NCBI GenBank assembly: GCA_037189845.1 | Contig: JBBCIS010000003.1 | Coordinates: 385,477 to 449,476, forward strand | DNA length: 64,000 nt | Direction: 5' to 3' | DNA from: a bacterium | GTDB taxonomy: Bacteria; Bacteroidota; Bacteroidia; Chitinophagales; JADIYW01 | Shown: positions 3,095 through 58,395 of the stretch, piece by piece | Position numbering within the stretch: position 1 is the first letter of the stretch | Layout: every line of letters begins with the position of its first letter | The notes under the pieces: generated by a model | The model's input: the letters and a program-made list of their open reading frames with translations, nothing else | What the model was told of the DNA's origin: nothing | Databases searched by the model: none | Translations under genes and position numbers: made by a program

Positions 3095-3616
3095 GCAATT
3101 ACGATTTTTGATTGACGATTGACGATTGACGATTTCGCTGACGCAGGGAGACTCGAAACCATAAACAGGGTTGCAGAATGAAATGGTTCTACCACGAATT
3201 TAGTAGAGATTTTGTCTTATTGTGGTTCGAAAGCGTTTCGACAACAATCTTAATTGCAATCATCAAACACCGTGATTTTCTTTTTTCTTTCATACTTTTT
3301 TAGAAAAAGTATGGCAAAAATCGCGCCCGACTTTTCGGCGACCCACTTCATGCTCAATGGCTAAATCTTCTAAACTCACCACCTTGTGGGCGGTTCAAAC
3401 AGTAGAAGATTTTACGCCATTTTCGTATTAGTGGGTATCCCGCCTGCAAAGCCAAGGGCGCAGAAAAGCACAGAGATTTGGGTGTAGATATATTTGTTTT
3501 ACTCTTTGGGGCTTATCGCAGAAAATTCTTTCTCCATTAAAATAGTGGTAGAACCAATGAAATAGACTAAAACTCCCAGCTATTTTTTAGAATACGGGAA
3601 AAATATCCATTTCAAT

Positions 3617-7025: not shown

Positions 7026-7047
7026 TACTGGCAGTAAAAAATTCTTT

Positions 7048-18108: not shown

Positions 18109-18357
18109 TTTTGTTTTATGGAACTTCAGGAGGTATTATACCGATGGCCATTCAATATAGATCAATCCCGATTCACTTTGTTTTCGGGATTACGTTACTC
18201 TTCATTTCAACTCCGTTTAATTGGTATAGTTTGTTGTTCTCCCGACTTTTTAGATAAAATATGGATAAAATGCAGATATTTTATATTTTTATGTTTATCC
18301 TGAGCATCGCGAAGGGTAGCATTTTTGAAAAAAATATGAATAAAATATGAATAAAAT

Positions 18358-19431
18358 ATGGACAAGTTTATTCAGAAGCTCAATTTTGATTTTGTTACTA
18401 ACCAAAGAGTACTACAACTCATTGGCCACATTGATGGCTTCAAGGGCAAATGGAATATTGCCGAAAAACAGGAAAACCGTTATTTGAAAGAATTGCGGAA
18501 AATTGCCACCATTGAAAGTATTGGTTCATCTACAAGAATTGAGGGCGCAACACTTACCAACCAGGAAGTACGGGAACTTCTGAAAGACATCAAAATTACA
18601 AAGCTAAAAAGTCGTGATGAACAAGAGGTAATGGGATATTACAATGTTCTGGAACTCATTTATGATAATTATTCCGTTATACAACTTTCAGAAAGTTACA
18701 TTAAGCAACTCCACCAGATTCTTTTGAAATACAGTAGTAAAGACGAACGGCACAGGGGAGGCTACAAACACCTTTCCAACAAAGTAGTAGCGACTTATCC
18801 GACAGGTGAACAGAGAACAATTTTTTCAACTACTGAGCCTGCATTGGTTGCCGGAGAAATGCAGGAGTTAGTTGATTGGACAAAAGCACAATTAGAACAA
18901 AAAAGTATTCATCAACTAATTGTAATTGGTAGTTTTATTTACGATTTTTTAAGCATACATCCATTTCAGGATGGGAACGGCAGATTGTCCAGACTGCTTA
19001 CTACACTTTGCCTGTTACAAAATGATTATTCCTTTATTCAATACATCTCGTTTGAAAACCATATCGAGCAAAACAAAAAATCCTATTACGAAGCTCTGAT
19101 GAATGGTCAGAAAAATCGGGGAACAGATAACGAACGCATAGATCTTTGGCTAGTTTTCTTTCTGGAAAGCCTGAAAACACTTACTGAGAAATTAGAGCAG
19201 AAATATGACATATTCAAATCTAAAGGTGGTTATCTGAATGACCGGCAAAAGTTAATAAAAAATTTTATTGCAAATCGCCAACCTGTTAAGGTAAGTGATT
19301 TAGCAAAGCAATTTCCTGATATCGGGTTGAGTACTTTGAAGAAAGATTTGCAATACCTGCGAAATGAACAAGTGCTGACAATGATTGGACAGGGAAAAGG
19401 AAGCGTCTACATTTTGAAAAAACAAGACTAA
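18358..19431 (+). CDS. Fic-family protein (class II, N-terminal inhibitory motif) with C-terminal winged-helix domain
   Basis: Fic motif HPFQDGNGRLSRLL; N-terminal SxxxEG (STRIEG) inhibitory-helix motif; C-terminal wHTH-like segment KVSDLAKQFPDIGLSTLKKDLQYLRNEQVL. Confidence 0.85.
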   Translation: MDKFIQKLNFDFVTNQRVLQLIGHIDGFKGKWNIAEKQENRYLKELRKIATIESIGSSTRIEGATLTNQEVRELLKDIKITKLKSRDEQEVMGYYNVLELIYDNYSVIQLSESYIKQLHQILLKYSSKDERHRGGYKHLSNKVVATYPTGEQRTIFSTTEPALVAGEMQELVDWTKAQLEQKSIHQLIVIGSFIYDFLSIHPFQDGNGRLSRLLTTLCLLQNDYSFIQYISFENHIEQNKKSYYEALMNGQKNRGTDNERIDLWLVFFLESLKTLTEKLEQKYDIFKSKGGYLNDRQKLIKNFIANRQPVKVSDLAKQFPDIGLSTLKKDLQYLRNEQVLTMIGQGKGSVYILKKQD

Positions 19432-20322: not shown

Positions 20323-20506
20323 AGTTTTTTTGTTTAAGGTTTAAGGTTTGATGTTTAAAGTTTTGCTGTCGCCCGGTGGCTGAGCAGTTCGACTACGTGG
20401 TTGTTGAGCCCAGTCGAAACACTTACTGACCACGGAGTTGGAGCCTGATTGAGTCCACGGTCCACAGACCGCCGTATTTGTCGTCTGTCATCCGTGGTCT
20501 GTTGAG

Positions 20507-20905
20507 TTAAAACTTGTAGCCTATACCTATTCCCGGATGCCACCGGCCACTGACAGCCGATGTTTTGGGATTATAGAATACAGGTAGTTGCAAAGCAAAA
20601 TGTTTATAAGAAAGCGTGAGTCCTGCTCCCAGAGACGGCATGACAAATGAATTGGATACTTCATTGTTGTCTTTTTTGAACCGCAGGGAAGGCAAGACTC
20701 CGGCTAAAAGTGTAAATGATTTCTTCTTCCACTTGATAGCGGGCCCGGTGAAATTGAGATAAGCGCCTTTATCTACATATCCGGCTATTATATATCCCTC
20801 CCAGATCGAGAATGAGATATTTTTTTCCTTTTTACTTTCTTCTTTGGTGGATTCAGCAACGACCAGCAAGGGGAGCAACATGAATAGAGTAATGATGATT
20901 TTCAT
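20507..20905 (-). CDS. small predicted outer-membrane beta-barrel protein of unknown function
   Basis: Signal peptide, alternating amphipathic strands, C-terminal GIGYKF (terminal aromatic). Embedded between nirD and the FNT gene. Confidence 0.5.
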   Translation of the reverse strand: MKIIITLFMLLPLLVVAESTKEESKKEKNISFSIWEGYIIAGYVDKGAYLNFTGPAIKWKKKSFTLLAGVLPSLRFKKDNNEVSNSFVMPSLGAGLTLSYKHFALQLPVFYNPKTSAVSGRWHPGIGIGYKF

Positions 20906-20929
20906 ACAGTTTGGTTTTGACTACAGTAA

Positions 20930-21289
20930 TTAAAAGATTCCGATATAGACGATTCCATCATCAATCTTTACGGGATAGGTTTTGATGGCACATTCATCTC
21001 CGTTCAGGCATTCTCCTGTCTGGAGTGAAAATGTTTTTTTGTGGAATGGACAAGCTACTTTGGGTACTTCTCCGTGACTACCCAGCATTCCCCTGCTGAG
21101 TGCCATTTGCTTTTTGTGGGGACATTCATTTTGAGTAGCATACCATTCATCTCTGCGGGTAAAATAGAACAGAGCTATCTGCTGATCTTCATATTTGACA
21201 CATGCGCCTCCATTTTCGATGACATCTTCTGTCCTGCAGGCTGCAAACCATGTGCTGACAGCTGTTTTCGTTTCTTTTTCTTGTATCAT
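20930..21289 (-). CDS. nirD: nitrite reductase [NAD(P)H] small subunit (Rieske-type)
   Basis: CPHKKQMALS...VACPFHKKTF Rieske CxH...CxxH; 119 aa. Confidence 0.85.
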   Translation of the reverse strand: MIQEKETKTAVSTWFAACRTEDVIENGGACVKYEDQQIALFYFTRRDEWYATQNECPHKKQMALSRGMLGSHGEVPKVACPFHKKTFSLQTGECLNGDECAIKTYPVKIDDGIVYIGIF

Positions 21290-21478
21290 GGTTGTAGTTT
21301 AAAGTTCAATGTTTTTTTAGTCCACGGTCAACAGTCCACAGATCACCGTTTTGATGATTAGTTCACAGACCGCGGTTCATCCGCCTCGACAGATCGTTTT
21401 TGCTGTTATCGTTTGCGTTGTCTGTTTTCAGTCGTCCGTTGTCTAAAGTCTTTCATCTTTTCTCTTATGTCTTGAGCA

Positions 21479-23968
21479 TTACCCCCAATTCGCAGCTCTC
21501 TTTTGCTCTCTCATCGGGTCAAATTTTACAGAAGGATCTTTCTCTTCCGTTGCGTTGACGAAGTGGCTGAATTTTTTTCTGATTTCAGGATTTTCGACTG
21601 CTGCTTTCCATTCGCATTGATAAGCACTGATGAGTGTCGCTATTTCGGCTTCTAATTCGCCTCCGATACCTAAGCTATCGTGCACAATCACATCTTTGAG
21701 ATAACTGATGCCGCCTTCGAGCTTGTTGAGCCATGGTGCAGTCCGGGTCAGCGGATCAGCTGTTTTAATGTAAAACATCAAAAATCTATCTATGTATCTG
21801 ATGCAGGTTTCACTGTCTATATCTGCTGCCAGAAGCTGTGCATGCTGGGGTTTGCTTCCTCCGTTACCGCATACATACAGGTTCCATCCTTTTTCAGTAG
21901 CAATAATTCCGAAATCTTTACCCTGTGCTTCCGCACACTCTCTGACACATCCCGAAACAGCAGATTTGAGCTTATGGGGTGCCCGGATACCTTTGTATCT
22001 GTCTTCTATCTGAATAGCAAAAGTGACGCTGTCGTGCAATCCGAATCTGCACCATGTAGAGCCTACGCAGCTTTTGACTGCACGGAGAGATTTACCGTAT
22101 GCGTGTCCGCTTTCAAACCCGGCAGCAATAAGTTCTTCCCATATATAGGGCAGGTCATTCAGATGCGCCCCGAACATATCTACCCGCTGAGCACCGGTAA
22201 TCTTGGTGTACAGATTGTATTTTTTCGCTACTTCACCTATTACAATGAGCTTCTCAGGAGTGATCTCTCCACCGGGAATTCTGGGCACTACGGAATATGT
22301 ACCGCCTTTCTGGATATTGGCTAAAAATCTGTCGTTGGTATCCTGAGAGGCATGATGCTGTTTCGCAACGACCAGGTCATTCCATGCGCTTGCCAGTATA
22401 GAACTGACTGCCGGACGGCATACTTCACAACCATCGCCGTGCCCTACACCATTTAAAACTTCGTCATATGTCCGGAAATTCTTTATTTTAACCAGGCTGA
22501 ATAACTCCTGCCTGGAAAACTGAAAATGCTCACAGATAATATTTCTGATAACTTTGCCCTGCTTTTTCAAAGTACTGTTGACAATATCTTTGACCATAGG
22601 CACACAGCCTCCGCAACCTGTGCCAGATCTGGTACATTTCTTCACTGCATCAAAATTTTCACAGCCCTGATTTACAGCATCGGCAATTTGCCCTTTGGTG
22701 ACACCTTCACAGCTACAAATCAACGCATCGTCCGGAAGCTCAAATCCATCATCAGCACCGGAGCTGTTAGATTTCACAATCAGGTTGAGCGGATTCCCTT
22801 TGATTTCTATCTTGTTTTTGTACATCTGCAAAAGCTTGTTGTATTCTTCTGCATCCCCGACCAGGCTTCCCCCAAGCAGGAATTTACCATCATTGGAGAT
22901 ATTTATTCTCTTATATATTCCGGAGAGAGTATCATTATATAAGATGCTTTCGGCCTCATTTCCGTCGATAAAGGGATCTCCGAAACTGGCAACATCTACT
23001 CCTATCAGCTTCAGCTTGGTGCTCATATCAAAGCCACTGAACTTTTTGCTCTGAGTTCTGGCCAGCTGCTGAGCTACAATTTCAGCCATTTCATACCCGG
23101 GAGCGACCAACCCGTATATAGTATTTTCATGGAGTGCACATTCTCCGATGGCAAATATTCTCGGATCGCTGGTCTGCATAGTATCATTGACAATAATACC
23201 TCCACGGGGGCCAATATCCAGCCCGCATTTTTTCGCCAGCTCATCTCTCGGTCGTATCCCTGCTGAGATGACTGCTATATCTGCTGTCAAAGTGGTTCCA
23301 TCAGAGAAAATAAGGCTATGTATGGAATCATTTCCCAGCACCGCCATAGTATTCTTATTATTGTGAGTAGTAATACCCAGTTCCTTCAGCTTTCTTTTCA
23401 GAGTATCTGAACCTTCACTGTCTATCTGTCTAGGCATCAGCCTCTGTGAAAACTCAACGATGCTGATATCTTTTATTCCTAAATCCAAGAGTGCTTTTGC
23501 TGCTTCAAGCCCTAACAGGCCTCCGCCAATGACAGCCCCGGTTTTACAGCTGCCTGCATAGCTTTTTATCATATTGAGATCTTCAATAGTCCGGTAAACA
23601 AAAACTCCCGACTTGTCTATGCCATACATATCAGGTACAAAAGGAGCGGATCCTGTGGCCATGATAAGGTAGTCATAAGAAACTTTGCATCCTTCAAAGG
23701 AGGTAATTCTCCTGTTTGCCCTGTCTATTTGCATAACAGGATCGCCCAGATGAAGGTCGATTTGATTTTCTCTGTACCACTTCATAGGTTTCATGCACAA
23801 ATCCTTTACAGTCTTTCCGGCAAAGTATTCACTCAGGTGCACTCTGTCATAAGCTGAGATCGGCTCTTCTCCAAAGACAGTCAACGCCAAATCGGGTATC
23901 TGCAATTCTGCCAGTTTCTCACAGAGCCGCTGCCCGACCATTCCATTTCCGATAATAGTAATTTTCAT
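21479..23968 (-). CDS. nirB: nitrite reductase [NAD(P)H] large subunit
   Basis: N-terminal FAD/NAD Rossmann fold (KITIIGNGMVGQRL); BFD-like [2Fe-2S] Cys cluster; C-terminal sirohaem/4Fe-4S nitrite-sulfite reductase domain (CVGSTWCRFG); 829 aa. Confidence 0.9.
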   Translation of the reverse strand: MKITIIGNGMVGQRLCEKLAELQIPDLALTVFGEEPISAYDRVHLSEYFAGKTVKDLCMKPMKWYRENQIDLHLGDPVMQIDRANRRITSFEGCKVSYDYLIMATGSAPFVPDMYGIDKSGVFVYRTIEDLNMIKSYAGSCKTGAVIGGGLLGLEAAKALLDLGIKDISIVEFSQRLMPRQIDSEGSDTLKRKLKELGITTHNNKNTMAVLGNDSIHSLIFSDGTTLTADIAVISAGIRPRDELAKKCGLDIGPRGGIIVNDTMQTSDPRIFAIGECALHENTIYGLVAPGYEMAEIVAQQLARTQSKKFSGFDMSTKLKLIGVDVASFGDPFIDGNEAESILYNDTLSGIYKRINISNDGKFLLGGSLVGDAEEYNKLLQMYKNKIEIKGNPLNLIVKSNSSGADDGFELPDDALICSCEGVTKGQIADAVNQGCENFDAVKKCTRSGTGCGGCVPMVKDIVNSTLKKQGKVIRNIICEHFQFSRQELFSLVKIKNFRTYDEVLNGVGHGDGCEVCRPAVSSILASAWNDLVVAKQHHASQDTNDRFLANIQKGGTYSVVPRIPGGEITPEKLIVIGEVAKKYNLYTKITGAQRVDMFGAHLNDLPYIWEELIAAGFESGHAYGKSLRAVKSCVGSTWCRFGLHDSVTFAIQIEDRYKGIRAPHKLKSAVSGCVRECAEAQGKDFGIIATEKGWNLYVCGNGGSKPQHAQLLAADIDSETCIRYIDRFLMFYIKTADPLTRTAPWLNKLEGGISYLKDVIVHDSLGIGGELEAEIATLISAYQCEWKAAVENPEIRKKFSHFVNATEEKDPSVKFDPMREQKRAANWG

Positions 23969-24136
23969 TCCTGTTTGTTTTATTCCGACAACTCGGTTTA
24001 TTAAAAAATATATGTGAATTATTTTCAGAAAAACAACAAATAAATATATTGATATCCTGAAATTATAAATGAAATTATTGTAAAATCAAGATAGTTTTTC
24101 ATTTTTAAGATTAATTTAGAGTAAATTATATTACAT

Positions 24137-24973
24137 ATGAAAAATCATAAAGTAAAAAGATTGACATTGCTGGGAGCAGGTCCAGGAGACCCGGAGCTCT
24201 TTACTTTAAAGGGGGTCCGGGCATTAGAGGAGGCTGATGTGGTATTGTATGACGCATTGGTCAATGTGGAATTATTGAAATATGCAAAAAATGCTAAAGA
24301 GAAGATTTTTGTGGGAAAAAGGTTTGGATGTCATGCGCTTTCTCAAAAAGAAATCAATGAGCTGATTCAGGAAAAGGGGACGCAGTATAAAGATGTCGTC
24401 CGGCTGAAAGGGGGCGATCCTTTTGTTTTTGGCAGAGCACAGGAAGAAATTATTGCAGCCACCGAAGCCGGGATGGAAGTCCGTGTTATCCCCGGCATTT
24501 CTAGTGCGCTGGCAGTGCCTGCATCTCAAATGATATCGCTGACTTCCAGAGGAGTAAGTGACAGCTTCTGGGTGGTCACGGGTACAACCTGCTCGGGAGA
24601 GGTATCTTCTGATATTCATCTGGCGGCTCAATCAAAATCTACAATTGTCATCCTGATGGCGATGAATAAGCTGGAACAAATCATGGAACTCTTTTCTGAA
24701 TACGGAAAAGGGGATACACCTGTTGCTATTATACAGAACGGAACTACAGATACTGCTAAAATTGTAAGAGGCAGAGTAAGGGACATTTATTATCGTTCGC
24801 TTTACGCTGAAATCGGAAATCCTGCTGTCATCGTTGTAGGGGAAGTGGTAGAGCTGAATGAAAATATTGTCCGGCAACTGAAATCAGAGCGCTTTTTGAC
24901 GGCAGAAAATTTGTTCCTTGAAGACAATACAATAAATATAGACCGGGAACGGACAGGCGGGCTGAGCAGATAA
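24137..24973 (+). CDS. cobA: uroporphyrinogen-III C-methyltransferase (sirohaem synthesis)
   Basis: LLGAGPGDPELFTLKG...VVRLKGGDPFVFG SUMT signature; divergent from nirB, consistent with sirohaem supply. Confidence 0.85.
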   Translation: MKNHKVKRLTLLGAGPGDPELFTLKGVRALEEADVVLYDALVNVELLKYAKNAKEKIFVGKRFGCHALSQKEINELIQEKGTQYKDVVRLKGGDPFVFGRAQEEIIAATEAGMEVRVIPGISSALAVPASQMISLTSRGVSDSFWVVTGTTCSGEVSSDIHLAAQSKSTIVILMAMNKLEQIMELFSEYGKGDTPVAIIQNGTTDTAKIVRGRVRDIYYRSLYAEIGNPAVIVVGEVVELNENIVRQLKSERFLTAENLFLEDNTINIDRERTGGLSR

Positions 24974-25069
24974 ACACAGAAGAAAATCATTATTCATCAT
25001 ATCAATCAGTGTTACCAGCGTGCTATCTTAATTTATCCTGCTTACCAAAATGTCGTACTTTTATGACAG

Positions 25070-25762
25070 ATGAAAAAGAGCATAGTGCTGTCGGCTGAGA
25101 ATTGTTTCTTATATGAAAAATGCCAGGAGGCCTGGTGGCCGGCACTGGATGCTCATACGAAGCAAATCCGTATCAGAAAAGGGCAACAGATATTTACTGA
25201 GGGAGAGAAGGTTTCCGGAATCTATTTCATGGTAGAAGGTGTTGTCAAAGTACACAAACGGTGGAGTAATGACAAGGAGTTGATTGTGAGATTTGCTCAA
25301 AAGAAAGACATCCTCGGACACAGAGGATTGACTACACACACAGATATTTACCCGATATCGGCAACTGCATTGACAGATGCTGTTGTTTGCTTTATAGATT
25401 TACCATTTTTTTTCGCCAGCCTGAAAGTGAACGCTGCTCTGGCTCATGATATGATGATGTTTTTTGCTGACGAACTGATGCTATCTGAACAAAATCTGCA
25501 GGTACTGGCCAATCTGCATGTGAAAGGAAGGCTTGCAAGATTGCTTGTTTCACTGGAGAAAAAATTCGGAGTTGATGAAAACGGAGCAATATCTTTCCCT
25601 GTTTCCCGTCAGGATATGGCTTCCTGTATAAGTACTGTATACGAAACTGTTTATAAGCTGCTACTGGAATTTACAGATGCTGGTTGGGTGGAGACAAACG
25701 GAAAGCATCTTATTCTGAAGAACAAAGCTGCACTAAAAGAATTGTTCCAAAGTCCGGAATAG
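25070..25762 (+). CDS. Crp/Fnr-family transcriptional regulator
   Basis: cNMP-binding-like beta-roll plus C-terminal HTH (SRQDMASCISTVYETVYKLL). Only two N-terminal Cys (C12, C18), so not a classical 4-Cys FNR. Confidence 0.8.
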   Translation: MKKSIVLSAENCFLYEKCQEAWWPALDAHTKQIRIRKGQQIFTEGEKVSGIYFMVEGVVKVHKRWSNDKELIVRFAQKKDILGHRGLTTHTDIYPISATALTDAVVCFIDLPFFFASLKVNAALAHDMMMFFADELMLSEQNLQVLANLHVKGRLARLLVSLEKKFGVDENGAISFPVSRQDMASCISTVYETVYKLLLEFTDAGWVETNGKHLILKNKAALKELFQSPE

Positions 25763-25989
25763 TCCTGCATCTCCCGTCATCAAAGCAAGCTCTCTCCATA
25801 GCAAGATCCTGGCAATCGGTTTGAAATATATCATCAACAAAATGGCACATTTACTATATTTTATTGTGTATAGTCAATAAAAATTACAATTTTACATTTT
25901 TTATAACTTATACTCAATAAAAATAGTCATCAGAATAATTCTCGCAGATAATTGAAACTTCAAGCTTCACATAGCGTAGTAAATAATCA

Positions 25990-28900
25990 TCAATTATCTC
26001 CACCTCTTTTTCCAAGCAGCTTCACCAGTTTCTGCATGTGCTCATTCAGCCCGGAGAATTGCATCAGTACCTGTGCAGTCTTGTCATCATCAGCGATACC
26101 GGAAAACTGGTTGTTTTTGCGGAAGGTTTCTGTGATGTGCAAATAGCGGGCCTGCTCTTCCGGAGTGGCGATATGCATCAGATGTTTCAGCTTTAAAAGA
26201 TTGGCTTCGGCATCGGAAGTGAGTGTCTGCGCATCTGCCTCATAAGATCCGATCACCAGCTGTATCAGCTCCTGCTCATTCATTAACGGGACGACTTTCG
26301 TGACCATTTTATTCATGTTGCGGTATGAACCCTGTAATTTGAACGCAGGTTCTGTACGGTAGGTGTCTTTCATTCCTGCGCTCTGAATGTATAGTTCGTT
26401 GACCTGAAGAATAATATTTCTGATGTACAGACAGTTTTTCAGAACAGCTATGCTGTCTTCGATTTCGGCAGCTGTATGGTTGGCTTCCAACTCCGGACTG
26501 TATTCTTCTTTGCGCTCGATATACTGTATGAGCTTGTACAGATCATTGATGTTTTTGTGGGCTATCGCCTGGAGATACCTGTTTTCGCTGATGGCATTTT
26601 CTATCAGGCTGAGGTCAAAATATTGCCTGCTCTCTCCTGCCACATCTCCCAGATTATATACATCCGAACGATTGGCCAGCATGTCCGGGATTTTGAAAAG
26701 ATTACCGCTTTCTGTATATGGATTACCCGCCATGACCACGCAGAATCTTTTGCCACGAAGGTCATAAGTTTTACTTTCTGATTCAAAGATGCCGTCTATC
26801 TTGCGCTGTCCGTCTGCCAGAGAGATAAACTGCTGTAAAAATTCAGGGCTGCAATGCTGGATATCATCTACATACAGCATGACATTGTCCGCCATCTCAA
26901 AGGAGAGGTTAATTTTTTCCAACTCTGCTTTTGCTCCTGAATTGGTAGCTTCTGACGGATCGATGCTGGTGATGCGGTGACCGATAGTAGGGCCGTTGAT
27001 TTTTACAAAATGTAGTCCCATCGTTGCTGCCAGATATTCCATCAGAGTGGTTTTACCATAACCCGGAGGAGAAATCAACAACAGCATACCCATTCTTGCT
27101 GTCCGCTTGTCATTGCCGATAGTACCCAGCTGCTTGGACAAATTGGCTCCAATCATAGGGAAATAGACTTCATTGATGAGCTTATTTCTCATGAATGAGC
27201 TGAGTACTTTGGGACGCATTTCCTGAATTTTTAACCGCTGCTCATATTTTTGGATGAGTCCGCGTTTGGTTTCCCTGAATGAGTCATACAACGGAACTGT
27301 TGTCTCATCGAAATGCTGTAAACGATTCAGAAAATCATGGTACTGAATATGATATCCCTGATCTGAGATCACCGGATGAGTACCCTTTAAGTCATGAATG
27401 GTCATGGCATCTGTACCGATGTGTTCCCGGTATGCATCAAATTCAAAAACCAGCAGACAGGCTGCTTCTTCTATATATTTGAGATTATAGGAATTTTCTT
27501 TTTGTGTAGTAACGAAGGCCTCTATCCAGTCCGAAATGGTATGGTAGCGTTCATAGAGGCTATACTGCTGATTGCGCGCATCTTCTTCAAAACGCTCCAT
27601 CTGATGGAGGTCATTCAGGTGCCTGATAAAATCATTTTTGATATGGATAGCCGGAATACTGGCGGTAAAAACCGGAGTATCCTCAAATTCAGCTATCAGA
27701 TATGATGCTATTGAATGAATGGTCCGCTGATGTAATTCGGGGTGAATTTTTTGTATCTCCTGTGTCAGTGCTTTGAAGGATTTCAATTCTTCAAATGGTG
27801 TCTGAAATAATTGATGAATCTTATGGGCTGATTGTATCCATTGGGATAATTTTTCCCTGGTTGCTTCTTCCAATTGTTTCCAGTACAATTGAGCCTGCAC
27901 CCTGATTTCTACAGAAAATCTCAGCACACCGAGTTCTTCATACATTTTCAGTAATGCTTCAAATATCATCAAGGCATCTGTATTGTGTACACCTTTTACA
28001 TATCCGCCTGCGTAATCTCTTTCTATTAAATTATCAATATAGGTCAATGCAGAAAATCCGTTATCCGTTTTGGTATAAGCTATAAAGGTGAGATAAGCCA
28101 GATATTCCGCCCGGTAAACGCCCGGATTTTCTGAACGGTAATCCTGATCCCAGACACTGATATATTGCTGAAAGATTTTCTGATCAATAGGCTGGTAAAA
28201 GTTGGTTCCCATCAGGTGATACATGAGCCTGTCCTGATGTTTGACGATGGTGAGCGATAATTCCTGCTTATTGACCGCAAACTTATATGTACCAAGTGCG
28301 ATAATATTTTGTCCGTCCACAAAAAGTTCGGCCTGATCATGCAAGACCCTCACTGCATTTTCCTGCGCCAGCTTGAGACTGTTAAGCAGGTTTTCAGCTT
28401 TCCCGACATCACCGAGCTGCTGAAGCTCCTGCGCAAGATTCCGGATTTTTTCTATCATGAGATCGCCGGCAAAAAAGCTGAAGATTTCTTCTGTTGAGCT
28501 AAAGCTACGGGCTTTGGTTTCCACACTTTTCAGGACACGAAGTCCTATTTGCTCAAGATTCCCGGTCCGTTTATTGATCTGTGCGATCAACATTTCTTTT
28601 TTACCATTGAAAGCTTTGACTACCTCATCCCGCTTATCAGCTATTTTCATTATAAACTCATCAAAGTCCGCAAACTTGCTTTCCAGCTCTTCGATGTGGA
28701 CACTGATTTTGGTGAAATAGTTGTCTGTTTTTTCGACAGTATCTGAAAGGTCCAGGAAATTGACAATGCTTTGTTCGAGCAAGGTCAGCTGTGCATGAAA
28801 CTCCCCGACTGCTTCACTGGACTTCAGGGTACTTATTTTCCTGTTCAATAAAGCTCTGACTTCATTCAATGTTGAAAAAAGCAAAGAGATATTCTCAATG

Positions 28901-30837
28901 ATTTTAGTCGTTTGAGTGGTATCTTCTATTTTAAGGCTGTTCAGTATGTCAATGAGCAATTCTAATTGTCCTGCTATGCTCAGACATTCCTTTTCAATGA
29001 CCTGTGCATCTATGACTTTACTGACAGCTTCGATAGCCTGACGTTGTGCTTCGATATTTTTCTCATAAGGCAGTAAAGCATTCTCCTGTAATAAAAAGTT
29101 GATGGTTTCCTGTGAAAGTTGTTCATTGAATGCTTTAACCTGCTCTGACAAAGCCTGAATTGCCTGCTCATCAATATATCTTACCTGTAATAATTCAATG
29201 ATACTGCCCTGCGCCAGGCGGACAGTATGTAGCTGTCTGACCAGCTCATCGACTGCGGTATAACGGGCATTCCTGATGGTTTGACTCAATTGTGCAATGC
29301 GTTCCTGCATGAGCTTTTCTTGTGCGGATGCGTACTGACGCTGTGCCTGTACTTTGGCAAATTCATCTATAGCTGTATTGGCTATCTCGCTGATGGCTTT
29401 CAGCGGTTCTGCAAGATTGAAAGTTTCTTCGTCAGCCAGCCAGAAATAGCTGTCTGTCATCGCACGGGACAATCTGGCTATATCTTCATACAATCCTTCA
29501 TAACTGTCTTCTTTCCTGAGCAGCTGTACTATCTCATATCCTTCAGACATGGCGTGTACGATATCTTTATTGCCGATTTTGTACAGGACATTGTTTCTCA
29601 TTTCCCGATTTTCCACCAGGATTGCGGTATATGGAGTCTGCCAGATTTGTACCTGATGATGCCTGATGGCTTCACGTTCTGATTTGAAATAAATCAGCTT
29701 TCCATCCTGAAAAATTGTAAATCCATTGCAGATGATGGGCGTATTGACCTGCTGCTGAATCACGTTGTAAGACATCAATACATAGGTATTGGAGGTCTTC
29801 TGATAATAAACATACAGATAGTCTTCTCCATTCGGAGCTATCATGGTACGCATGTATTCCAGCTCATCTATTCCGTTGTCGAAGAGCTTATATTCTCCGT
29901 TTTGCAGATAATAGCCGTTGGAAAAGATAATTCCCTGCTGATCCGGCAATAGAACTCCGCTGTACAACAGGCTCGGAATATTATGGACTTCTTTTGTCCT
30001 GATGTTATAAATATAGGCTCTGGACTCTTCCTGGTAGGGCTGTATTTTGATAGCAATCAGGTTGCCTAAATCCGCATAAAAATAGTTGGCATCATCCAGC
30101 TGCTGATCCTTGTTGCTGACTGGTTCTGAGTAAATTCCCAGTCCACTCTCCGTATTATCTTCAATTTTGAAGGTGATGTCTCCGTTGATCGCTTCGATAA
30201 ACACCTTGTCCAGGATAGATATATGCGGATGTACCCCCAATCGCCTGTCTTCCAGACTGGTCTTTTTGAAATCAAAGCTATACTGTGGTGCAGTTCTGAC
30301 CTCATGAATGCTTCTGTCATCTATGTATTGCAGGCGATTTCCATCTATATACCACTTAAAAGCTTTCCTGTCGGCTACATTTTTTGAGCTCTGGAAAATC
30401 ATGTACAGATAATTCTCCGTCTTGTAGAATTTGGAGAAAAAGGCTTCTCTGTAGTATTTATAGAGGTTTTTAAAATCTGCTTCAAACTGTGGATCTGCAA
30501 TCAAATCCAGTGTCGTAGGCTCAAATTGTATATCCTGAAAATGATAGATACTGAATACATCATCCAGTGAGATCTCTTCTCTCAATCCAAAGTGAACATT
30601 GTAAGCAAAAATGCAATGCTCGCCCAATGCTATTATACCTCTCGCTACTCCATTGTGCTCGGTAGTGATACGCTGATTGGCAATCAGTGCAAACTGTTCG
30701 GTATTGAAAATGGCTTTTCTTCCAACATTCAATGCTGCCAAGCGATCGCTCAGTATCTTGCTCTGCTCCTGTAAACGATTACGGATAATTTCGTAAGTAC
30801 CCGCTTCTAAAGACATCATTGGATTGGATTTTGGCAT
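25990..30837 (-). CDS. giant (1615 aa) multidomain protein with MoxR-type AAA+ ATPase core; function unknown
   Basis: Uninterrupted ORF. Walker A LLLISPPGYGKTT at ~27061-27090, Walker B MLYVDDIQ, and MoxR-like sensor-1/helix-2 region FCVVMAGNPYTESGNLFKIPDMLANRSDVY. ~450-aa beta-rich N-domain and ~600-aa Q/E/L-rich helical middle. Confidence 0.7.
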   Translation of the reverse strand: MPKSNPMMSLEAGTYEIIRNRLQEQSKILSDRLAALNVGRKAIFNTEQFALIANQRITTEHNGVARGIIALGEHCIFAYNVHFGLREEISLDDVFSIYHFQDIQFEPTTLDLIADPQFEADFKNLYKYYREAFFSKFYKTENYLYMIFQSSKNVADRKAFKWYIDGNRLQYIDDRSIHEVRTAPQYSFDFKKTSLEDRRLGVHPHISILDKVFIEAINGDITFKIEDNTESGLGIYSEPVSNKDQQLDDANYFYADLGNLIAIKIQPYQEESRAYIYNIRTKEVHNIPSLLYSGVLLPDQQGIIFSNGYYLQNGEYKLFDNGIDELEYMRTMIAPNGEDYLYVYYQKTSNTYVLMSYNVIQQQVNTPIICNGFTIFQDGKLIYFKSEREAIRHHQVQIWQTPYTAILVENREMRNNVLYKIGNKDIVHAMSEGYEIVQLLRKEDSYEGLYEDIARLSRAMTDSYFWLADEETFNLAEPLKAISEIANTAIDEFAKVQAQRQYASAQEKLMQERIAQLSQTIRNARYTAVDELVRQLHTVRLAQGSIIELLQVRYIDEQAIQALSEQVKAFNEQLSQETINFLLQENALLPYEKNIEAQRQAIEAVSKVIDAQVIEKECLSIAGQLELLIDILNSLKIEDTTQTTKIIENISLLFSTLNEVRALLNRKISTLKSSEAVGEFHAQLTLLEQSIVNFLDLSDTVEKTDNYFTKISVHIEELESKFADFDEFIMKIADKRDEVVKAFNGKKEMLIAQINKRTGNLEQIGLRVLKSVETKARSFSSTEEIFSFFAGDLMIEKIRNLAQELQQLGDVGKAENLLNSLKLAQENAVRVLHDQAELFVDGQNIIALGTYKFAVNKQELSLTIVKHQDRLMYHLMGTNFYQPIDQKIFQQYISVWDQDYRSENPGVYRAEYLAYLTFIAYTKTDNGFSALTYIDNLIERDYAGGYVKGVHNTDALMIFEALLKMYEELGVLRFSVEIRVQAQLYWKQLEEATREKLSQWIQSAHKIHQLFQTPFEELKSFKALTQEIQKIHPELHQRTIHSIASYLIAEFEDTPVFTASIPAIHIKNDFIRHLNDLHQMERFEEDARNQQYSLYERYHTISDWIEAFVTTQKENSYNLKYIEEAACLLVFEFDAYREHIGTDAMTIHDLKGTHPVISDQGYHIQYHDFLNRLQHFDETTVPLYDSFRETKRGLIQKYEQRLKIQEMRPKVLSSFMRNKLINEVYFPMIGANLSKQLGTIGNDKRTARMGMLLLISPPGYGKTTLMEYLAATMGLHFVKINGPTIGHRITSIDPSEATNSGAKAELEKINLSFEMADNVMLYVDDIQHCSPEFLQQFISLADGQRKIDGIFESESKTYDLRGKRFCVVMAGNPYTESGNLFKIPDMLANRSDVYNLGDVAGESRQYFDLSLIENAISENRYLQAIAHKNINDLYKLIQYIERKEEYSPELEANHTAAEIEDSIAVLKNCLYIRNIILQVNELYIQSAGMKDTYRTEPAFKLQGSYRNMNKMVTKVVPLMNEQELIQLVIGSYEADAQTLTSDAEANLLKLKHLMHIATPEEQARYLHITETFRKNNQFSGIADDDKTAQVLMQFSGLNEHMQKLVKLLGKRGGDN

Positions 30838-30890
30838 TGATTTGAGGTTAAAGACATGAGACGAGAGACAATAGACTTAAGAAGTTTAAG

Positions 30891-30950
30891 GTTTAAAGTC
30901 TAAGGTTTAAAGTTTGCTCACGCAACGATTGAAAACCTTAGACTTTAAAC
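30891..30950. promoter_or_regulatory. 18-bp perfect inverted repeat GTTTAAAGTCTAAGGTTT-N24-AAACCTTAGACTTTAAAC between the flotillin and giant-ATPase genes
   Basis: Arms at 30891-30908 and 30933-30950 are exact reverse complements. No U-tract follows on the coding (minus) strand. Adjacent direct repeats AAGGTTTAAAGT x2. Confidence 0.6.
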
Positions 30951-30962
30951 AACTTATCAGAT

Positions 30963-33038
30963 TTACGAAAGCTTTTTATTAGACAATCCGAGATTGCTGG
31001 CCATATTCAAAAGATTATTGATTAACGGCCGGTCAGAATCATCACTCTGCTGATGCATTTTGAGTAAGATGCTGGAAATCGTCAGATTCTTAATATCGTT
31101 GGTGCTGACATTGTATTTGTCAGCAAAATCTCTGATTTTATCCAGTAGATCTCCGTTGGAAGAGCCATCTCCAATCAATGCATTTTTGATATGCGTGGCA
31201 TTCTCACTTTCGTTGATTAATCTATCGAAACCTTTGGCGTTAGAAACCTGATCGACAATATTCCGGAAGAACATGGTCTCTCCACCTACGATATCTATGT
31301 TGGCTGATTTCAGTGCCTCGGAAAGGACATCTGCCTGAGCCACTGCAACATCTTTCTGGATATTGATCTGTGCAAGTGCAATATCTTTATCTTTCTGCAC
31401 AAGGATTTTGAACTCTTCGTGGTCTTTGCCAACGCCGTCCAGCTTCTTCATTGCCTCTGCTTTCTCTTCAATACCGGATGCTTCTGCCAACGCTTTCTCT
31501 TTTGTTCCTTCTGCTTCCGCAAATGCTTTTTGTTTCATCACTTCCGCTTCCATCAGACCTTCTTTGCGTTTCGCATCTGCCATTTTCTCTACTACATTCG
31601 CCTCGACGATACCCTGGCGCTCAGTTGCAGCTGCTTTTGCCATCATTACTTCTGCTTCAGATAAACCGATAGTCGCTTCCTCACGTGCCTGGGCTTCTGC
31701 AAGAATTTTCCTTGCTTCTGCTTGTTTTGTAGCTGCATCTTTACGAGCTTCTGCATCGATCAGCATTTCTTTGGCTTTTTCTTCCGCCGCCTTTTTGTCC
31801 GCTTCTGCCGCTTTCACGGTATAGATTAATTTTTCTTCTGCCTGACGGGAAGCTTCGGTGATACCGACTGTTTTCACTCTTTCCACCTCACGGAAAGCTT
31901 CAATATCTTTGATGTTCTGCTCTTCTTCGACTACGCCTTTTTCTAATTTGACGCGCTCTTTGATGACATCCTGGATGTTTTTGCGTTCGATCTCGACCGT
32001 TTTTTCTTTCTCTATCTGGGCGAGTGTGACAATTTTCTCTTTTTCTGTCTGCTCCAATAATTTGTCTTTCTCTACTCTTTCAGTCTCTACCGCATCTGTT
32101 CTCAGCTTATTTTTCTCTGCAATGATGATCTGACGGAGCTTATTTTCTTCCTGAATGGCTAATTGTTCTTCTGTACGGATTCTGACCGTTTCAGATTTTA
32201 GTCTTTCTTCTTCTCTGACTTTGAGAATTTCTGCTTCTTCCCTGGATTTAATATTGTCAATTTCTCTTTTTTGCTTCTCTTCTTTTTCAGCCATCTGACG
32301 TTCCAATTCCAGTATAGCTTCTCTGGCTTCTACATTTTGTTTTTTGATGACTTTCTCCTCTTCTCTGCGGATCAGATTGGATTTGATATTCTGAGCGGCA
32401 GTCAGTTCCGTGATCTTTTTGATACCTTCTGAATCAAGGATATTTTCTGCACTTAAAAATCTTAGTTCCGTCTGTTCTAAATAATCGATAGCACAATCAT
32501 CTAAAATATATCCATTGAGGTCAGTACCGATCACATCCAGAATCTCATCCCTGAACTCCCGACGTGCTTCATACAGCTCTATGAAATCGAATTTTTTACC
32601 CGCAGTTTTAAGTGCTTCAGAAAATTTGGCTTCAAAAACGTTATTCAGCGTATCTACATCACTGGCACGGTCGCAACCTATCACCTGCGCTACATTGATG
32701 ACGTCATCAACACTTTTGTTGACCCGTACAAAAAATGCAACTTTGATATCTGCCCGGATATTATCCTTACAAATCAAACCATCGTGTTCCATCCGGTCGA
32801 TTTGTAATTTTTTTACGGAAATATCCATTATTTCCATTTTATGCAAAATAGGAATCACGTACATACCACTGTTAAAAGCAACCTTGCTGCCTCCGACACC
32901 TGTCCTTACGATAGCCTTGCCTTGCGGAATTTTTTTGTAAAATGTCGCAAATGCAAATAGTACAACGACGATAATGAAGATCACTCCGCATATCAACAGG
33001 ATGAGTAATCCTCCCAAATTGTCAAATAATGTTCCCAT
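30963..33038 (-). CDS. flotillin-family SPFH (band 7) protein
   Basis: N-terminal TM segment; SPFH domain; ~350 aa of E/K/A/R-rich coiled coil; 691 aa. Architecture of YqiK/FloT-type flotillins. Confidence 0.85.
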   Translation of the reverse strand: MGTLFDNLGGLLILLICGVIFIIVVVLFAFATFYKKIPQGKAIVRTGVGGSKVAFNSGMYVIPILHKMEIMDISVKKLQIDRMEHDGLICKDNIRADIKVAFFVRVNKSVDDVINVAQVIGCDRASDVDTLNNVFEAKFSEALKTAGKKFDFIELYEARREFRDEILDVIGTDLNGYILDDCAIDYLEQTELRFLSAENILDSEGIKKITELTAAQNIKSNLIRREEEKVIKKQNVEAREAILELERQMAEKEEKQKREIDNIKSREEAEILKVREEERLKSETVRIRTEEQLAIQEENKLRQIIIAEKNKLRTDAVETERVEKDKLLEQTEKEKIVTLAQIEKEKTVEIERKNIQDVIKERVKLEKGVVEEEQNIKDIEAFREVERVKTVGITEASRQAEEKLIYTVKAAEADKKAAEEKAKEMLIDAEARKDAATKQAEARKILAEAQAREEATIGLSEAEVMMAKAAATERQGIVEANVVEKMADAKRKEGLMEAEVMKQKAFAEAEGTKEKALAEASGIEEKAEAMKKLDGVGKDHEEFKILVQKDKDIALAQINIQKDVAVAQADVLSEALKSANIDIVGGETMFFRNIVDQVSNAKGFDRLINESENATHIKNALIGDGSSNGDLLDKIRDFADKYNVSTNDIKNLTISSILLKMHQQSDDSDRPLINNLLNMASNLGLSNKKLS

Positions 33039-33188
33039 GAAAATTGATTTAGTTTTAAATGTTTAAGGTTTTTTTAGTTTAAAGCCGATGAGTTTCGACA
33101 GGTGGTTTCCGGATCATTTCGACTCCGCTCAATGACCTCTTCAACACTCTATAGTGTTAACAAATTCGGCAATCGTAAATTGTAATTT

Positions 33189-40232: not shown

Positions 40233-40343
40233 ATGGGTATCTTGTATTGAGTATTGAGACGGCTGACGCAACATAGTTGTTTACGGTAAATAGCTCGCTC
40301 TGCGTTAAATCCTTTGTTTCCAAAGGAACAAAAACTACCTGTA

Positions 40344-58334: not shown

Positions 58335-58395
58335 GGACTCAGGACAATTTACTTCACAAATCAAAAATTCATAATTCATAAATCCATATCTAAGC

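What the first reader, a model, noticed from the sequence alone, without database searches (positions are those of the whole stretch)
20335..33095. Recurrent GTTTAAGG / GTTTAAAG(T) leader motif immediately upstream of several minus-strand genes
Occurrences: 20340-20368 (GTTTAAGGTTTAAGGTTTGATGTTTAAAGTT, upstream of the FNT gene); 21299-21310 (upstream of nirD); 30884-30950 (upstream of the giant ATPase, as direct plus inverted copies); 33055-33090 (upstream of flotillin); and as AACTTTAAA at 50593-50602 and 50645-50654 (between the nuclease and DMT genes). Read in gene orientation the motif is ...AAACCTTAAACCTTAAAC..., 10-60 nt before the ATG. It is neither a Bacteroidota sigma-A -7/-33 box nor a Shine-Dalgarno element. 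It may be a shared cis-regulatory element (operator of a common regulator or RNA leader element) linking the nitrite and membrane-cluster genes, or the footprint of a small repeat family.
Basis: seen in the sequence. Interest (0 to 1): 0.5.

Follow-up and report, generated by a model that had tools for sequence, protein, structure and literature searches.

The report
Seven-base tandem repeats in gene leaders
The recurring GTTTAAGG motif is real, but it is not a shared genetic switch: it is one flavour of short seven-base tandem repeats that fill the gaps between genes in this bacterium and across its phylum, ending up as G-free, unfolded stretches just ahead of start codons.

Summary
The motif exists. 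It is a tandem heptanucleotide, (GTTTAAR)n on the + strand and (YTTAAAC)n in the minus-strand mRNA. It lies 7-46 nt upstream of four minus-strand start codons: FNT, nirD, the 691-aa gene and the giant ATPase. The two occurrences near 50.6 kb are chance single words.

It is not an operator or a regulon signal:
- The arrays sit inside operons, 7-9 nt from the ATG in three of the four cases, and no Bacteroidota -7 box lies in those spacers.
- They are absent from the orthologous spacers of the nearest relatives (67-81% protein identity).
- The same array occurs ahead of unrelated genes in at least 120 other genomes, 85% of them Bacteroidota.

It belongs to a known class, bacterial intergenic heptameric simple-sequence repeats (cyanobacterial STRR, Xanthomonas GGGAATC, Beggiatoaceae TAACTGA). 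It obeys the positional rule published for that class.

New here:
- This is an AT-rich, phylum-wide Bacteroidota member.
- The array typically ends 8-11 nt before the ATG, which places AAA on the known A-rich -11 to -14 initiation motif.
- Where an inverted copy is present, the two form an intercistronic hairpin.

Function is inferred. The arrays most likely arose by slippage and persist only in the orientation that gives an unstructured, G-free leader.

The parts
20332..20363 (-). Heptad array, 4.6 copies. On the + strand it reads GTTTAAG GTTTAAG GTTTGAT GTTTAAA GTTT. In the mRNA it reads AAACTTTAAACATCAAACCTTAAACCTTAAAC and ends 9 nt before the FNT start codon (20322), which puts AAA at -11 to -13.
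   Evidence: the last 41 nt of the leader are unpaired in the MFE fold
20364..20506 (-). The rest of the 184-nt spacer between the 132-aa ORF and FNT. It consists of degenerate heptads (GTCCACG GTCCACA GACCGCC ...) plus a small TTCGAC hairpin (about 20386-20421).
   Evidence: lag-7 z 4.1 for the whole spacer; register shown
21290..21478 (-). The 189-nt nirB-nirD spacer, built almost entirely of degenerate heptads. It begins with GTTTAAA GTTCAAT 7 nt from the nirD ATG (21289). The orthologous spacer in the nearest relative is 27 nt.
   Evidence: lag-7 z 5.5 and lag-14 z 3.6
30884..30915 (-). Heptad array, 4.9 copies (GTTTAAG GTTTAAA GTCTAAG GTTTAAA GTTT). It is the C/A-type 3' arm region in the mRNA. 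It lies 46 nt upstream of the first ATG of the giant ATPase ORF (30837), or 67 nt from the start called in the source annotation (30816).
30933..30950 (-). Inverted copy of the array, the G/U-type 5' arm in the mRNA. It starts 12 nt after the stop codon of the 691-aa gene (30963-30965). It pairs perfectly (18 of 18 bases, including the odd GTCTAAG unit) with 30891-30908 across a 24-nt loop.
   Evidence: RNA fold -29.6 kcal/mol, z -5.7, 0 of 200 shuffles as stable
30855..30883 (-). Degenerate heptads in the same register as the neighbouring array. One search prints them as CATGAGA CGAGAGA CAATAGA CTTAAGA; shifted by four bases they read GAGACGA GAGACAA TAGACTT.
   Evidence: lag-7 z 5.0 for the spacer
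33046..33084 (-). Degenerate array (GATTTAG TTTTAAA t GTTTAAG GTTTTTTTA GTTTAAAG), 7 nt upstream of the ATG of the 691-aa gene (33038).
   Evidence: family D10; leader unpaired in the fold; lag-7 z 2.4
3103..3137 (+). A different heptad array, (GATTGAC) x3.6. The run detected by Tandem Repeats Finder starts 15 nt after the stop (3094) of a + strand gene. It belongs to the same class and obeys the same positional rule.
   Evidence: z 3.2
40244..40258 (+). (GTATTGA) x2.1, 11 nt after the stop (40232) of a + strand gene.
58354..58381 (+). G-free heptads (AATTCAT type), 14 nt upstream of the ATG (58396) of a + strand gene. This is the mirror-image case of the minus-strand leaders.
   Evidence: z 3.6

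Best explanation
The GTTTAAR motif is a heptanucleotide simple-sequence repeat.

Shown:
- It is a tandem 7-nt array, one of several heptad types that fill this genome's intergenic spacers.
- It is lineage-specific: the orthologous spacers of relatives are short and lack it.
- It follows the positional rule of bacterial heptameric SSRs. The G/T-rich strand runs away from the adjacent gene end. [quoted passage not shown] - The leader is predicted to be unpaired.

Inferred:
- The arrays arise and turn over by replication slippage and local duplication.
- They survive only where and in the orientation in which they satisfy the Shine-Dalgarno-independent initiation requirements of Bacteroidota. Those requirements are an unstructured, A-rich leader with A at about -11 to -14.
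- They therefore act as generic ribosome-loading leaders, not as sites for a specific regulator.
- Where an inverted copy lies upstream (30933-50 with 30891-908), the transcript forms a strong intercistronic hairpin. That hairpin probably affects mRNA processing or stability, or the coupling between the two cistrons.
For: Tandem period 7:
- Tandem Repeats Finder rows at 20332-63 and 30882-915.
- Spacer-wide lag-7 z scores of 4-5.5.
- In 829 kb of related loci there are 73 perfect tandems of at least 3 copies with period 7. Periods 5, 6, 8 and 9 give 1-6 each.

Lineage-specific:
- Orthologous spacers in L122, L124 and L125 (ATPase 74, 70 and 67% identical) and in L127-L136 (FNT 81% identical) have no arrays.
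- Those spacers are 27-93 nt long, except L122's 1-kb 680aa-ATPase spacer, which is filled with an unrelated palindromic repeat. The window's are 125-189 nt.

Phylum-wide and not tied to a function:
- GTTTAARGTTTAARGTYT hit at least 120 loci, 102 of them Bacteroidota and none Bacillota.
- The downstream genes are functionally unrelated.

Geometry, from 129 arrays:
- 52 have an antisense start codon within 30 nt of the 5' side of the G-type strand. Only 10 have a sense start within 30 nt of the 3' side.
- The modal distance from array end to ATG is 8-11 nt.
- This is the same rule published for the GGGAATC and GGGGAYT heptamers (PMC4692102).

Leader properties:
- G is about 0 from -30 to -10 and A peaks at 0.50-0.58 from -13 to -10.
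- That peak coincides with the A peak of 498 leaders without arrays and with the -11 to -14 motif of F. johnsoniae (PMC6847099).
- The array words TTAAAC, CTTAAA and AAACTT are 2.5-3 times commoner in sense than in antisense in ordinary leaders.
- The sense spacer RNA is less structured than the antisense in 29 of 41 cases, p 0.002.
- The window's array leaders are unpaired in the MFE folds.

Inside operons:
- No TAnnTTTG box lies in the array spacers.
- The only terminator-like site on the gene strand within or beside these four spacers follows FNT.

Fast turnover:
- Flavobacterium strains with an identical FolD protein carry five unrelated heptad-built ffh-folD spacers.
- One of these shows a 14-nt duplication and module shuffling.
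Against: - No direct evidence that the arrays change translation. The leader role rests on position and composition only.
- The orientation bias would also arise if G-type leaders were merely harmful, with no positive role for the arrays.
- Slippage is inferred. Strain-level copy-number variation at the window's own loci could not be examined, because two metagenome scans found nothing.
- The array ahead of the giant ATPase is 46-67 nt from the ATG, not 8-11 nt.
- Some arrays, those ahead of 23S-IVS protein genes in L029 and L107, sit in the G-type sense orientation 4-5 nt from the ATG.
- The excess of G.U over A.C in stems (24 against 7) hints at RNA-level selection. That goes beyond a purely passive model.
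Confidence: 0.6

Rival explanations
1. A dedicated post-transcriptional module. The heptads are binding registers for a single-strand RNA-binding protein (bS1, a cold-shock protein or an RRM protein, one unit per heptad). Together with the inverted arm they form a selected hairpin-plus-leader cassette that sets translation, coupling or stability of the downstream cistron.
For: - The array ends at a sharp distance of 8-11 nt from the ATG.
- The architecture stop, G-arm, loop, C-arm, leader, ATG is kept at the Flavobacterium ffh-folD spacer while the sequence is replaced.
- Transition mismatches in stems are G.U on the sense strand 24 times and A.C 7 times.
- The hairpin at 30891-30950 is perfect, including a variant unit.
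- MacGregor 2015 proposed S1, Csp or CsrA binding for TAACTGA repeats in the same position.
Against: - No factor is known.
- The arrays are absent from orthologous leaders of relatives that express the same operons.
- Many different heptad sequences occupy the same position, which argues against sequence-specific recognition.
- The G.U bias could reflect C-to-T mutation pressure on the non-template strand.
Confidence: 0.25
2. An operator or regulon motif. A common transcription factor, for example the Crp/Fnr-type regulator at 25070-25762, binds the tandem motif and co-regulates the nitrite genes and the PspA/ATPase cluster.
For: The motif recurs in two clusters 10 kb apart, and a Crp/Fnr-family gene lies between them.
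Against: - It is not conserved in any orthologous spacer.
- It is located inside operons, next to start codons in three of four cases. It is absent from the divergent nirB promoter region 23969-24136.
- The same array precedes unrelated genes across a phylum.
- A 7-bp direct repeat is not a Crp/Fnr-type dyad.
Confidence: 0.03
3. A dispersed mobile miniature element (MITE- or REP-like) that has inserted ahead of these genes.
For: - Copies at 20321-49, 30880-908 and 33043-71 align at 72-76% (family D10).
- One site has an inverted pair.
- The window does hold a true MITE-like family elsewhere.
Against: - The similarity is only that of shared heptads.
- The copies have no common ends, no fixed length and no terminal inverted repeats. 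Their copy numbers differ.
- Other heptad sequences show the same behaviour.
Confidence: 0.07

Closest known systems
Heptameric G-rich SSRs GGGAATC (Xanthomonas) and GGGGA(C/T)T (Nostoc/Anabaena), Rehm et al. 2015, PMC4692102
   Same: - Tandem 7-nt units that are overwhelmingly intergenic.
- Identical positional rule: on the non-coding strand 0-50 bp upstream of a start codon, or on the coding strand 0-50 bp after (or overlapping) a stop codon.
- Neighbouring genes are functionally unrelated.
- Inverted pairs occur.
- Length and sequence vary between relatives (one search compared).
   Different: - Those units are G-rich and can form G-quadruplexes. GTTTAAR is AT-rich and cannot.
- The host phyla differ.
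- Here the array ends at a preferred 8-11 nt from the ATG.
TAACTGA direct repeats of marine Beggiatoaceae, some cyanobacteria and five Bacteroidetes, MacGregor 2015, PMC4679880
   Same: - Heptamer direct repeats, mostly 2-6 copies, within a few nucleotides upstream of start codons.
- No functional pattern in the downstream genes.
- Contain stop codons.
- Absent from the orthologous spacers of close relatives.
- Other heptamers share the same spacers in Gramella and Aequorivita.
   Different: - The unit is different.
- TAACTGA contains G in the mRNA sense.
- Its distribution was described as patchy and possibly due to horizontal transfer. GTTTAAR is spread over many Bacteroidota families.
STRR (short tandemly repeated repetitive) heptanucleotides of heterocystous cyanobacteria. 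These are the Calothrix PCC 7601 repeats cited in PMC4692102. The unit sequences CCCCAGT, TTGGTCA and CAACAGT are from my own memory of Mazel et al. 1990.
   Same: - Tandem heptanucleotides in spacers within operons.
- Several unit families per genome.
- The window's nir spacer even contains GGTCAACAGTCCACAG, which resembles the CAACAGT type.
   Different: - The phylum and the dominant units differ.
- STRR function is likewise unknown.
- The resemblance to the CAACAGT type is recalled from memory and was not tested.
A-rich translation-initiation motif of Bacteroidetes (A at -3, -6, -12 and -13, low structure, AUG depletion), Baez et al. 2019, PMC6847099
   Same: The array supplies AAA at about -11 to -13. 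It is G-free, AUG-free and unpaired, which are the properties reported to favour initiation without a Shine-Dalgarno sequence.
   Different: That motif is a compositional preference seen at most genes, not a tandem repeat. No experiment links heptad arrays to it.
REP/BIME-type intercistronic hairpins of enterobacteria (own knowledge)
   Same: The pair 30891-30908 and 30933-30950 forms a stable stem-loop between two cistrons of one operon. This is the position in which REP hairpins modulate mRNA decay.
   Different: - The arms are made of simple heptads, not a conserved about 35-nt palindromic unit.
- There is no evidence of a dispersed family or of RNase protection.

Membership tests
Bacterial intergenic heptameric simple-sequence repeats (long SSRs; STRR, GGGAATC and TAACTGA types) | Head-to-tail copies of a 7-nt unit | tested here: met
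   Tandem Repeats Finder reports period 7 with 4.6 and 4.9 copies. Lag-7 z scores are 4-5.5 in three spacers.
Bacterial intergenic heptameric simple-sequence repeats | Intergenic location, with period 7 over-represented relative to other non-triplet periods | tested here: met
   All window arrays lie in spacers. There are 73 perfect period-7 tandems against 1-6 each for periods 5, 6, 8 and 9. Those loci were chosen for holding one GTTTAAR array, but 31 of the 73 have other units.
Bacterial intergenic heptameric simple-sequence repeats | Positional rule of Rehm 2015: the G-rich strand is non-coding just upstream of a start codon, or coding just after a stop codon | tested here: met
   Of 129 arrays, 52 fit the start rule against 10 that break it. 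40 fit the stop rule against 15 that break it. All seven window arrays fit.
Bacterial intergenic heptameric simple-sequence repeats | Rapid length and sequence change between close relatives | tested here: inconclusive
   - The window arrays are absent from relatives at 67-81% protein identity.
- No closer strains could be found.
- For the class, five different ffh-folD spacers occur next to an identical FolD protein, and one carries a 14-nt duplication.
Transcription-factor operator or regulon motif | Conserved in orthologous regulatory regions | tested here: not met
   Absent from all four orthologous spacers.
Transcription-factor operator or regulon motif | Placed in or next to a promoter | tested here: not met
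   The arrays are intra-operonic spacers with no TAnnTTTG box, and three of four lie 7-9 nt from the ATG. TSS mapping was not possible.
Transcription-factor operator or regulon motif | Restricted to functionally linked genes | tested here: not met
   The downstream genes in other genomes are FolD, ETF-alpha, DUF58, PNP, HTS, CCG-domain, DUF1501 and 23S-IVS protein.
Known structured cis-regulatory RNA (Rfam family) | Match to a curated covariance model | tested here: not met
   No match at gathering score anywhere in the 64-kb window.
MITE- or REP-type dispersed repeat | Fixed-length copies with common termini or terminal inverted repeats | tested here: not met
   The copies share only heptads and differ in length and in flanking sequence. 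By contrast, a genuine family with terminal inverted repeats exists at 6877-7026, 15188-15347 and 36525-36740.
Bacteroidota Shine-Dalgarno-independent initiation region (works-like comparison, not a family) | A enrichment at -11 to -14, low G, low pairing, no upstream AUG | tested here: met
   compared with PMC6847099. The effect on translation itself is not testable with these tools.

The most novel reading that the evidence does not exclude
Bacteroidota, which cannot use Shine-Dalgarno pairing, maintain hypervariable heptad-repeat cassettes as a selected intercistronic module. A cassette consists of a G/U-type arm, a loop, a C/A-type arm and a G-free leader ending about 9 nt before the AUG. 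The 7-nt register would be read by a single-strand RNA-binding protein such as bS1 or a cold-shock protein. The hairpin would couple or gate translation and stability of the downstream cistron. Rapid repeat turnover would tune expression between strains.
Probability: 0.15. Interest if true: 0.7.

Novelty: new member of a known kind. Interest (0 to 1): 0.38.

Why it matters
For this window, the result removes a false lead. Nothing links the nitrite-assimilation operon to the PspA/giant-ATPase operon, because the shared motif is generic spacer filler.

More broadly, heptameric repeats are the most over-represented long SSR class in bacteria, and they remain functionally unexplained. The data here add three things:
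- an AT-rich member spread across Bacteroidota;
- the same orientation rule as in Xanthomonas and Nostoc;
- a concrete, testable link to Shine-Dalgarno-independent initiation, with the array ending 8-11 nt from the ATG so that its AAA falls on the A-rich -11 to -14 motif.

The Flavobacterium ffh-folD spacer offers a natural experiment on how such spacers evolve and whether they tune expression. Its sequence is completely replaced between strains that encode an identical FolD protein, while the architecture is kept.

Tried and rejected
- Rfam, gathering thresholds over the whole window: no hit. A permissive scan of one repeat module gave only a chance snoRNA match.
- Sigma-70-type promoter scan: counts at shuffle level and uninformative for Bacteroidota. 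TAnnTTTG search: none in the array spacers.
- Copy-number polymorphism at the FNT leader: a gapped pattern across the array was searched in metagenome contigs, with 0 hits. The same test on a Lake Mendota Flavobacterium folD leader also gave 0 hits. Both metagenome scans are now used.
- Close relatives of the source strain: none nearer than 74% (ATPase) or 81% (FNT) protein identity. Strain-level comparison of the window's own arrays was therefore impossible.
- Literature search for the repeat sequence itself: no paper contains it.
- Operator reading and MITE reading: rejected, as set out under rival explanations.
- Replication-strand explanation of orientation: considered and set aside. Start-adjacent and stop-adjacent arrays have opposite orientation relative to transcription. 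One fixed orientation relative to the replication fork would not produce that.
- Canonical intrinsic terminator for the 30891-30950 hairpin: rejected. The stem has few G-C pairs, no U-tract follows it, and the scan did not list it.


Full report
**What is in the sequence**

The motif is real. At four places the + strand carries GTTTAAR words immediately next to the start codon of a minus-strand gene.

| + strand position | Content | Distance to start codon |
|---|---|---|
| 20332-20363 | 4.6 tandem heptads | 9 nt from the FNT ATG (20322) |
| 21297-21304 | one GTTTAAAG word | 7 nt from the nirD ATG (21289) |
| 30884-30915 | 4.9 heptads | 46 nt from the first ATG of the giant ATPase ORF (30837) |
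| 33046-33084 | degenerate array | 7 nt from the ATG of the 691-aa gene (33038) |

- At the third site, positions 30933-30950 are a perfect 18-nt inverted copy of 30891-30908.
- The bare 8-mer is only marginally enriched: 11 matches against 5.7 expected.
- The tandem form is clearly enriched: 17 against 4.3 expected, reached by none of 100 shuffles. The two-heptad pattern gives 11 against 3.8.
- The two AACTTTAAA words near 50.6 kb are single copies in the opposite orientation, far from any start. Their spacer has no 7-nt periodicity (z 0.3). I treat them as chance.

**The motif is one face of a broader feature**

- The unit is seven bases. The 7-nt register runs well beyond the clean GTTTAAR copies.
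- The whole 189-nt nirB-nirD spacer has a lag-7 z of 5.5. The 184-nt spacer ahead of FNT has z 4.1. The 125-nt spacer ahead of the ATPase has z 5.0. All three are built of degenerate heptads.
- Other heptads occur elsewhere in the window:
  - (GATTGAC) x3.6, starting 15 nt after a stop codon at 3094;
  - (GTATTGA) x2, starting 11 nt after a stop at 40232;
  - G-free AATTCAT-type units, ending 14 nt before a + strand start at 58396.

**Source and gene context**

- The window comes from a 965-kb contig of assembly GCA_037189325.1.
- Its proteins are closest to Chitinophagales and Chitinophagaceae.
- nirB, nirD, a 132-aa ORF and the FNT transporter form one co-directional block. The only terminator-like site on their strand within or beside the array spacers lies after FNT (19527-19510).
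- None of the four array-bearing spacers has a Bacteroidota TAnnTTTG -7 box on the gene strand.
- I infer that the arrays lie inside polycistronic transcripts.

**Test 1: conservation**

- The operon CesT/YbjN, PspA, YqiJ, 680-691-aa protein, giant ATPase is conserved in relatives at 74, 70 and 67% ATPase identity.
  - In L124 and L125 the two corresponding spacers are 36-93 nt long, G-poor and A-rich, and have no arrays.
  - In L122 one spacer is 45 nt. The other is 1 kb, filled with an unrelated palindromic repeat, and also has no array.
- The nir operon of the nearest relative (FNT 81% identical, ten loci) has spacers of 27 and 79 nt, again without arrays.

**Test 2: distribution**

  - 102 are Bacteroidota of many families: Flavobacterium, Chitinophagaceae, Saprospiraceae, Cyclobacteriaceae, Prevotella, Bacteroides.
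  - None is from the equally AT-rich Bacillota.
- From my own knowledge, Bacteroidota are roughly a tenth to a seventh of GTDB species. The order of the scan is unknown, so these shares are approximate.
- The genes downstream are functionally unrelated: FolD, ETF-alpha, DUF58, PNP, homoserine O-succinyltransferase, DUF1501 and others.

**Geometry across the 129 arrays**

Each array was oriented so that it reads GTTTAAR.

- 52 arrays have the start codon of an opposite-strand gene within 30 nt of their 5' side. Only 10 have a same-strand start within 30 nt of their 3' side.
- 40 directly follow or overlap a same-strand stop codon. Only 15 lie close to an opposite-strand stop.
- The commonest layout is exactly that of the window: upstream stop, 30-60 nt, array read as AAACYTT in the mRNA, about 9 nt, ATG.
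- The distance from the array end to the ATG peaks at 8-11 nt.
- An inverted copy of at least 9 nt lies within 120 nt on the 3' side in 30 of 126 arrays. It lies on the 5' side in only 4.
- In the same loci, perfect tandems of at least three copies number 73 for period 7, of which 31 have other units. Periods 5, 6, 8 and 9 give 1-6 each.

**What is already known**

- Heptanucleotide repeats are the most abundant long simple-sequence repeats in bacteria. Polymerase slippage has been proposed as their source (Mrazek 2007, as summarised in PMC4679880 and PMC4692102).
- Rehm et al. 2015 studied GGGAATC in Xanthomonas and GGGGA(C/T)T in Nostoc.
  - They report the same rule I find: repeats lie on the non-coding strand within 0-50 bp upstream of a start, or on the coding strand within 0-50 bp after a stop.
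  - The neighbouring genes are functionally unrelated.
- MacGregor 2015 described TAACTGA heptamer repeats within a few nucleotides upstream of start codons in Beggiatoaceae, cyanobacteria and five Bacteroidetes.
  - The repeats were absent from the spacers of close relatives.
  - Other heptamers lay alongside them.
- The Calothrix heptanucleotides (STRR) belong to the same class.
- No paper in the library contains the GTTTAAR array sequence.
- The window's motif is therefore a new, AT-rich member of a known kind.

**How it most likely works**

- In the mRNA the arrays are G-free and AUG-free, and they carry TAA in all three frames. This can be read directly from the sequence.
- In the MFE folds, the last 40-46 nt before the FNT ATG and before the 691-aa gene's ATG are entirely unpaired.
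- Across 52 start-adjacent arrays, G is about 0 from -30 to -10 and A peaks at 0.50-0.58 from -13 to -10.
- 498 ordinary leaders from the same genomes show an A peak at -14 to -10. The array's words (TTAAAC, CTTAAA, AAACTT) are 2.5-3 times commoner there in sense than in antisense.
- This matches ribosome-profiling results for Flavobacterium johnsoniae. There, A at -12 and -13, which lie near bS1, and low structure favour Shine-Dalgarno-independent initiation (PMC6847099).
- Spacers that carry the C-type array are less structured as sense RNA than as antisense RNA in 29 of 41 cases, p 0.002.
- My best reading has two parts.
  - The arrays are born by slippage.
  - They persist only in the place and orientation in which they satisfy these generic leader requirements.
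- A positive role in ribosome loading is plausible but unproven.

**The hairpin ahead of the ATPase**

- In the transcript, the arm from 30950-30933 starts 12 nt after the stop codon of the 691-aa gene. It pairs with 30908-30891.
- The fold has -29.6 kcal/mol, z -5.7, and none of 200 shuffles is as stable.
- It has no U-tract and few G-C pairs, so it is not a canonical terminator.
- Stems of at least 10 Watson-Crick pairs occur in 27 of 70 co-directional spacers that hold arrays.
  - Their transition mismatches are G.U on the sense strand 24 times and A.C 7 times.
  - After removing two duplicate entries the count is 22 against 7.
  - This suggests selection on the RNA, but strand-biased C-to-T mutation could produce the same result.

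**Evolutionary dynamics**

- I could not find strains close to the source, so I used a Flavobacterium case that surfaced among the hits.
- Strains that encode an identical 294-aa FolD protein and share an identical or near-identical ffh 3' end (one base differs in L144) carry five unrelated ffh-folD spacers of 93-163 nt.
- Four of the five keep the same architecture: stop, G/T-type heptads, loop, complementary C/A-type heptads, nearly G-free leader, ATG. In the fifth, the 163-nt L137 type, the hairpin arms are not heptad-periodic.
- The heptad families differ between them.
- L142 carries a 14-nt (two-heptad) tandem repeat where L138 has a single, slightly different copy, and combines the L138 hairpin with the L144 leader.
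- Sequence turnover is therefore fast relative to protein change, while the architecture persists.
- This is the main reason I leave 0.25 for a dedicated post-transcriptional module.

**Verdict**

- The operator or regulon interpretation is rejected.
- Novelty: a new member of a known kind.
- Interest is moderate. The class is long known but unexplained, and these data make a link to Shine-Dalgarno-independent initiation directly testable.

Noticed in passing
window 6877-7026 (+), 36525-36740 (+), 15188-15347 (inverted): A genuine dispersed repeat, three copies of about 150-215 nt at about 80-88% identity. It has terminal inverted repeats, CACGGCRTTCGCATTTAA at one end and TTAAATGCGAAYRCCRTG at the other, and a variable internal insertion. 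It looks like a MITE. No Rfam family matches.
   Followed up: partly
L137-L146, L147-L159, L018, L118 (Flavobacterium ffh-folD spacer): Strains with an identical FolD protein (P0248) have five completely different intergenic sequences of 93-163 nt. Four keep the architecture heptad hairpin plus nearly G-free leader; the 163-nt type has a non-heptad hairpin. One variant holds a 14-nt tandem repeat and looks like a recombinant of two others. Another FolD group (P0347, ten loci) has one almost invariant 83-nt spacer, with a single base difference in L155.
   Followed up: partly
window 33090-33137 and about 20386-20421; L122 9000-10000: Palindromic TTCGAC/GTCGAA-type elements (for example GAGTTTCGACAGG...CATTTCGACTCCGCTCAATGACC) sit next to two of the heptad arrays. 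A relative has a 1-kb spacer made of tandem copies of a related element (gtcatttcgactgcagcgtagcggaatggagaaatctc). This is probably a REP-like family of Chitinophagales.
   Followed up: no
window 20323-20506 and 21290-21478, compared with L127-L136: The nir operon spacers are 184 and 189 nt here but 79 and 27 nt in the nearest relative. The 132-aa ORF (20507-20905, no Pfam or NCBIfam hit) between nirD and FNT is absent from that relative.
   Followed up: partly
It is part of a conserved operon: CesT_Tir_1/YbjN, PspA/IM30, YqiJ_N, this 680-691-aa protein, and a giant ATPase of about 1610 aa (DUF3686/DUF7902, AAA) that NCBI names 'DNA repair ATPase'. The operon occurs across Chitinophagaceae and some Cytophagales.
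   Followed up: partly
L029 153-184, L107 (array about 5 nt upstream of the gene at 7387-7755, minus strand), L013 2357-2825: Genes for 23S rRNA intervening-sequence (four-helix-bundle, bAvd-like) proteins lie directly next to GTTTAAR arrays in three of the four loci that hold such a gene. In two of them the array is in the exceptional G-type sense orientation, 4-5 nt from the ATG.
   Followed up: partly
L013 (Verrucomicrobia) and L022 (Gemmataceae): Two of the few non-Bacteroidota hits have the array 10-11 nt upstream of homologous DUF1501 genes (30% identity). In L022 it forms a 30-bp perfect hairpin.
   Followed up: no
window 18326-18360: An 11-nt tandem repeat (TGAATAAAATA x3.2) runs into the ATG (18358) of a Fic-domain gene.
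   Followed up: no
window 7939-10347 (-): The 1263-aa protein (PTL_trimer and Peptidase_S74 domains according to the source's gene calls) contains nested internal DNA repeats of 51 nt and 387 nt.
   Followed up: no
window 25851-25924: Two adjacent 34-nt AT-rich direct repeats (TTTACATTTTTTATAACTTATACTCAATAAAAAT type) lie in the convergent spacer downstream of both the Crp/Fnr-family gene and the giant ATPase gene.
   Followed up: no
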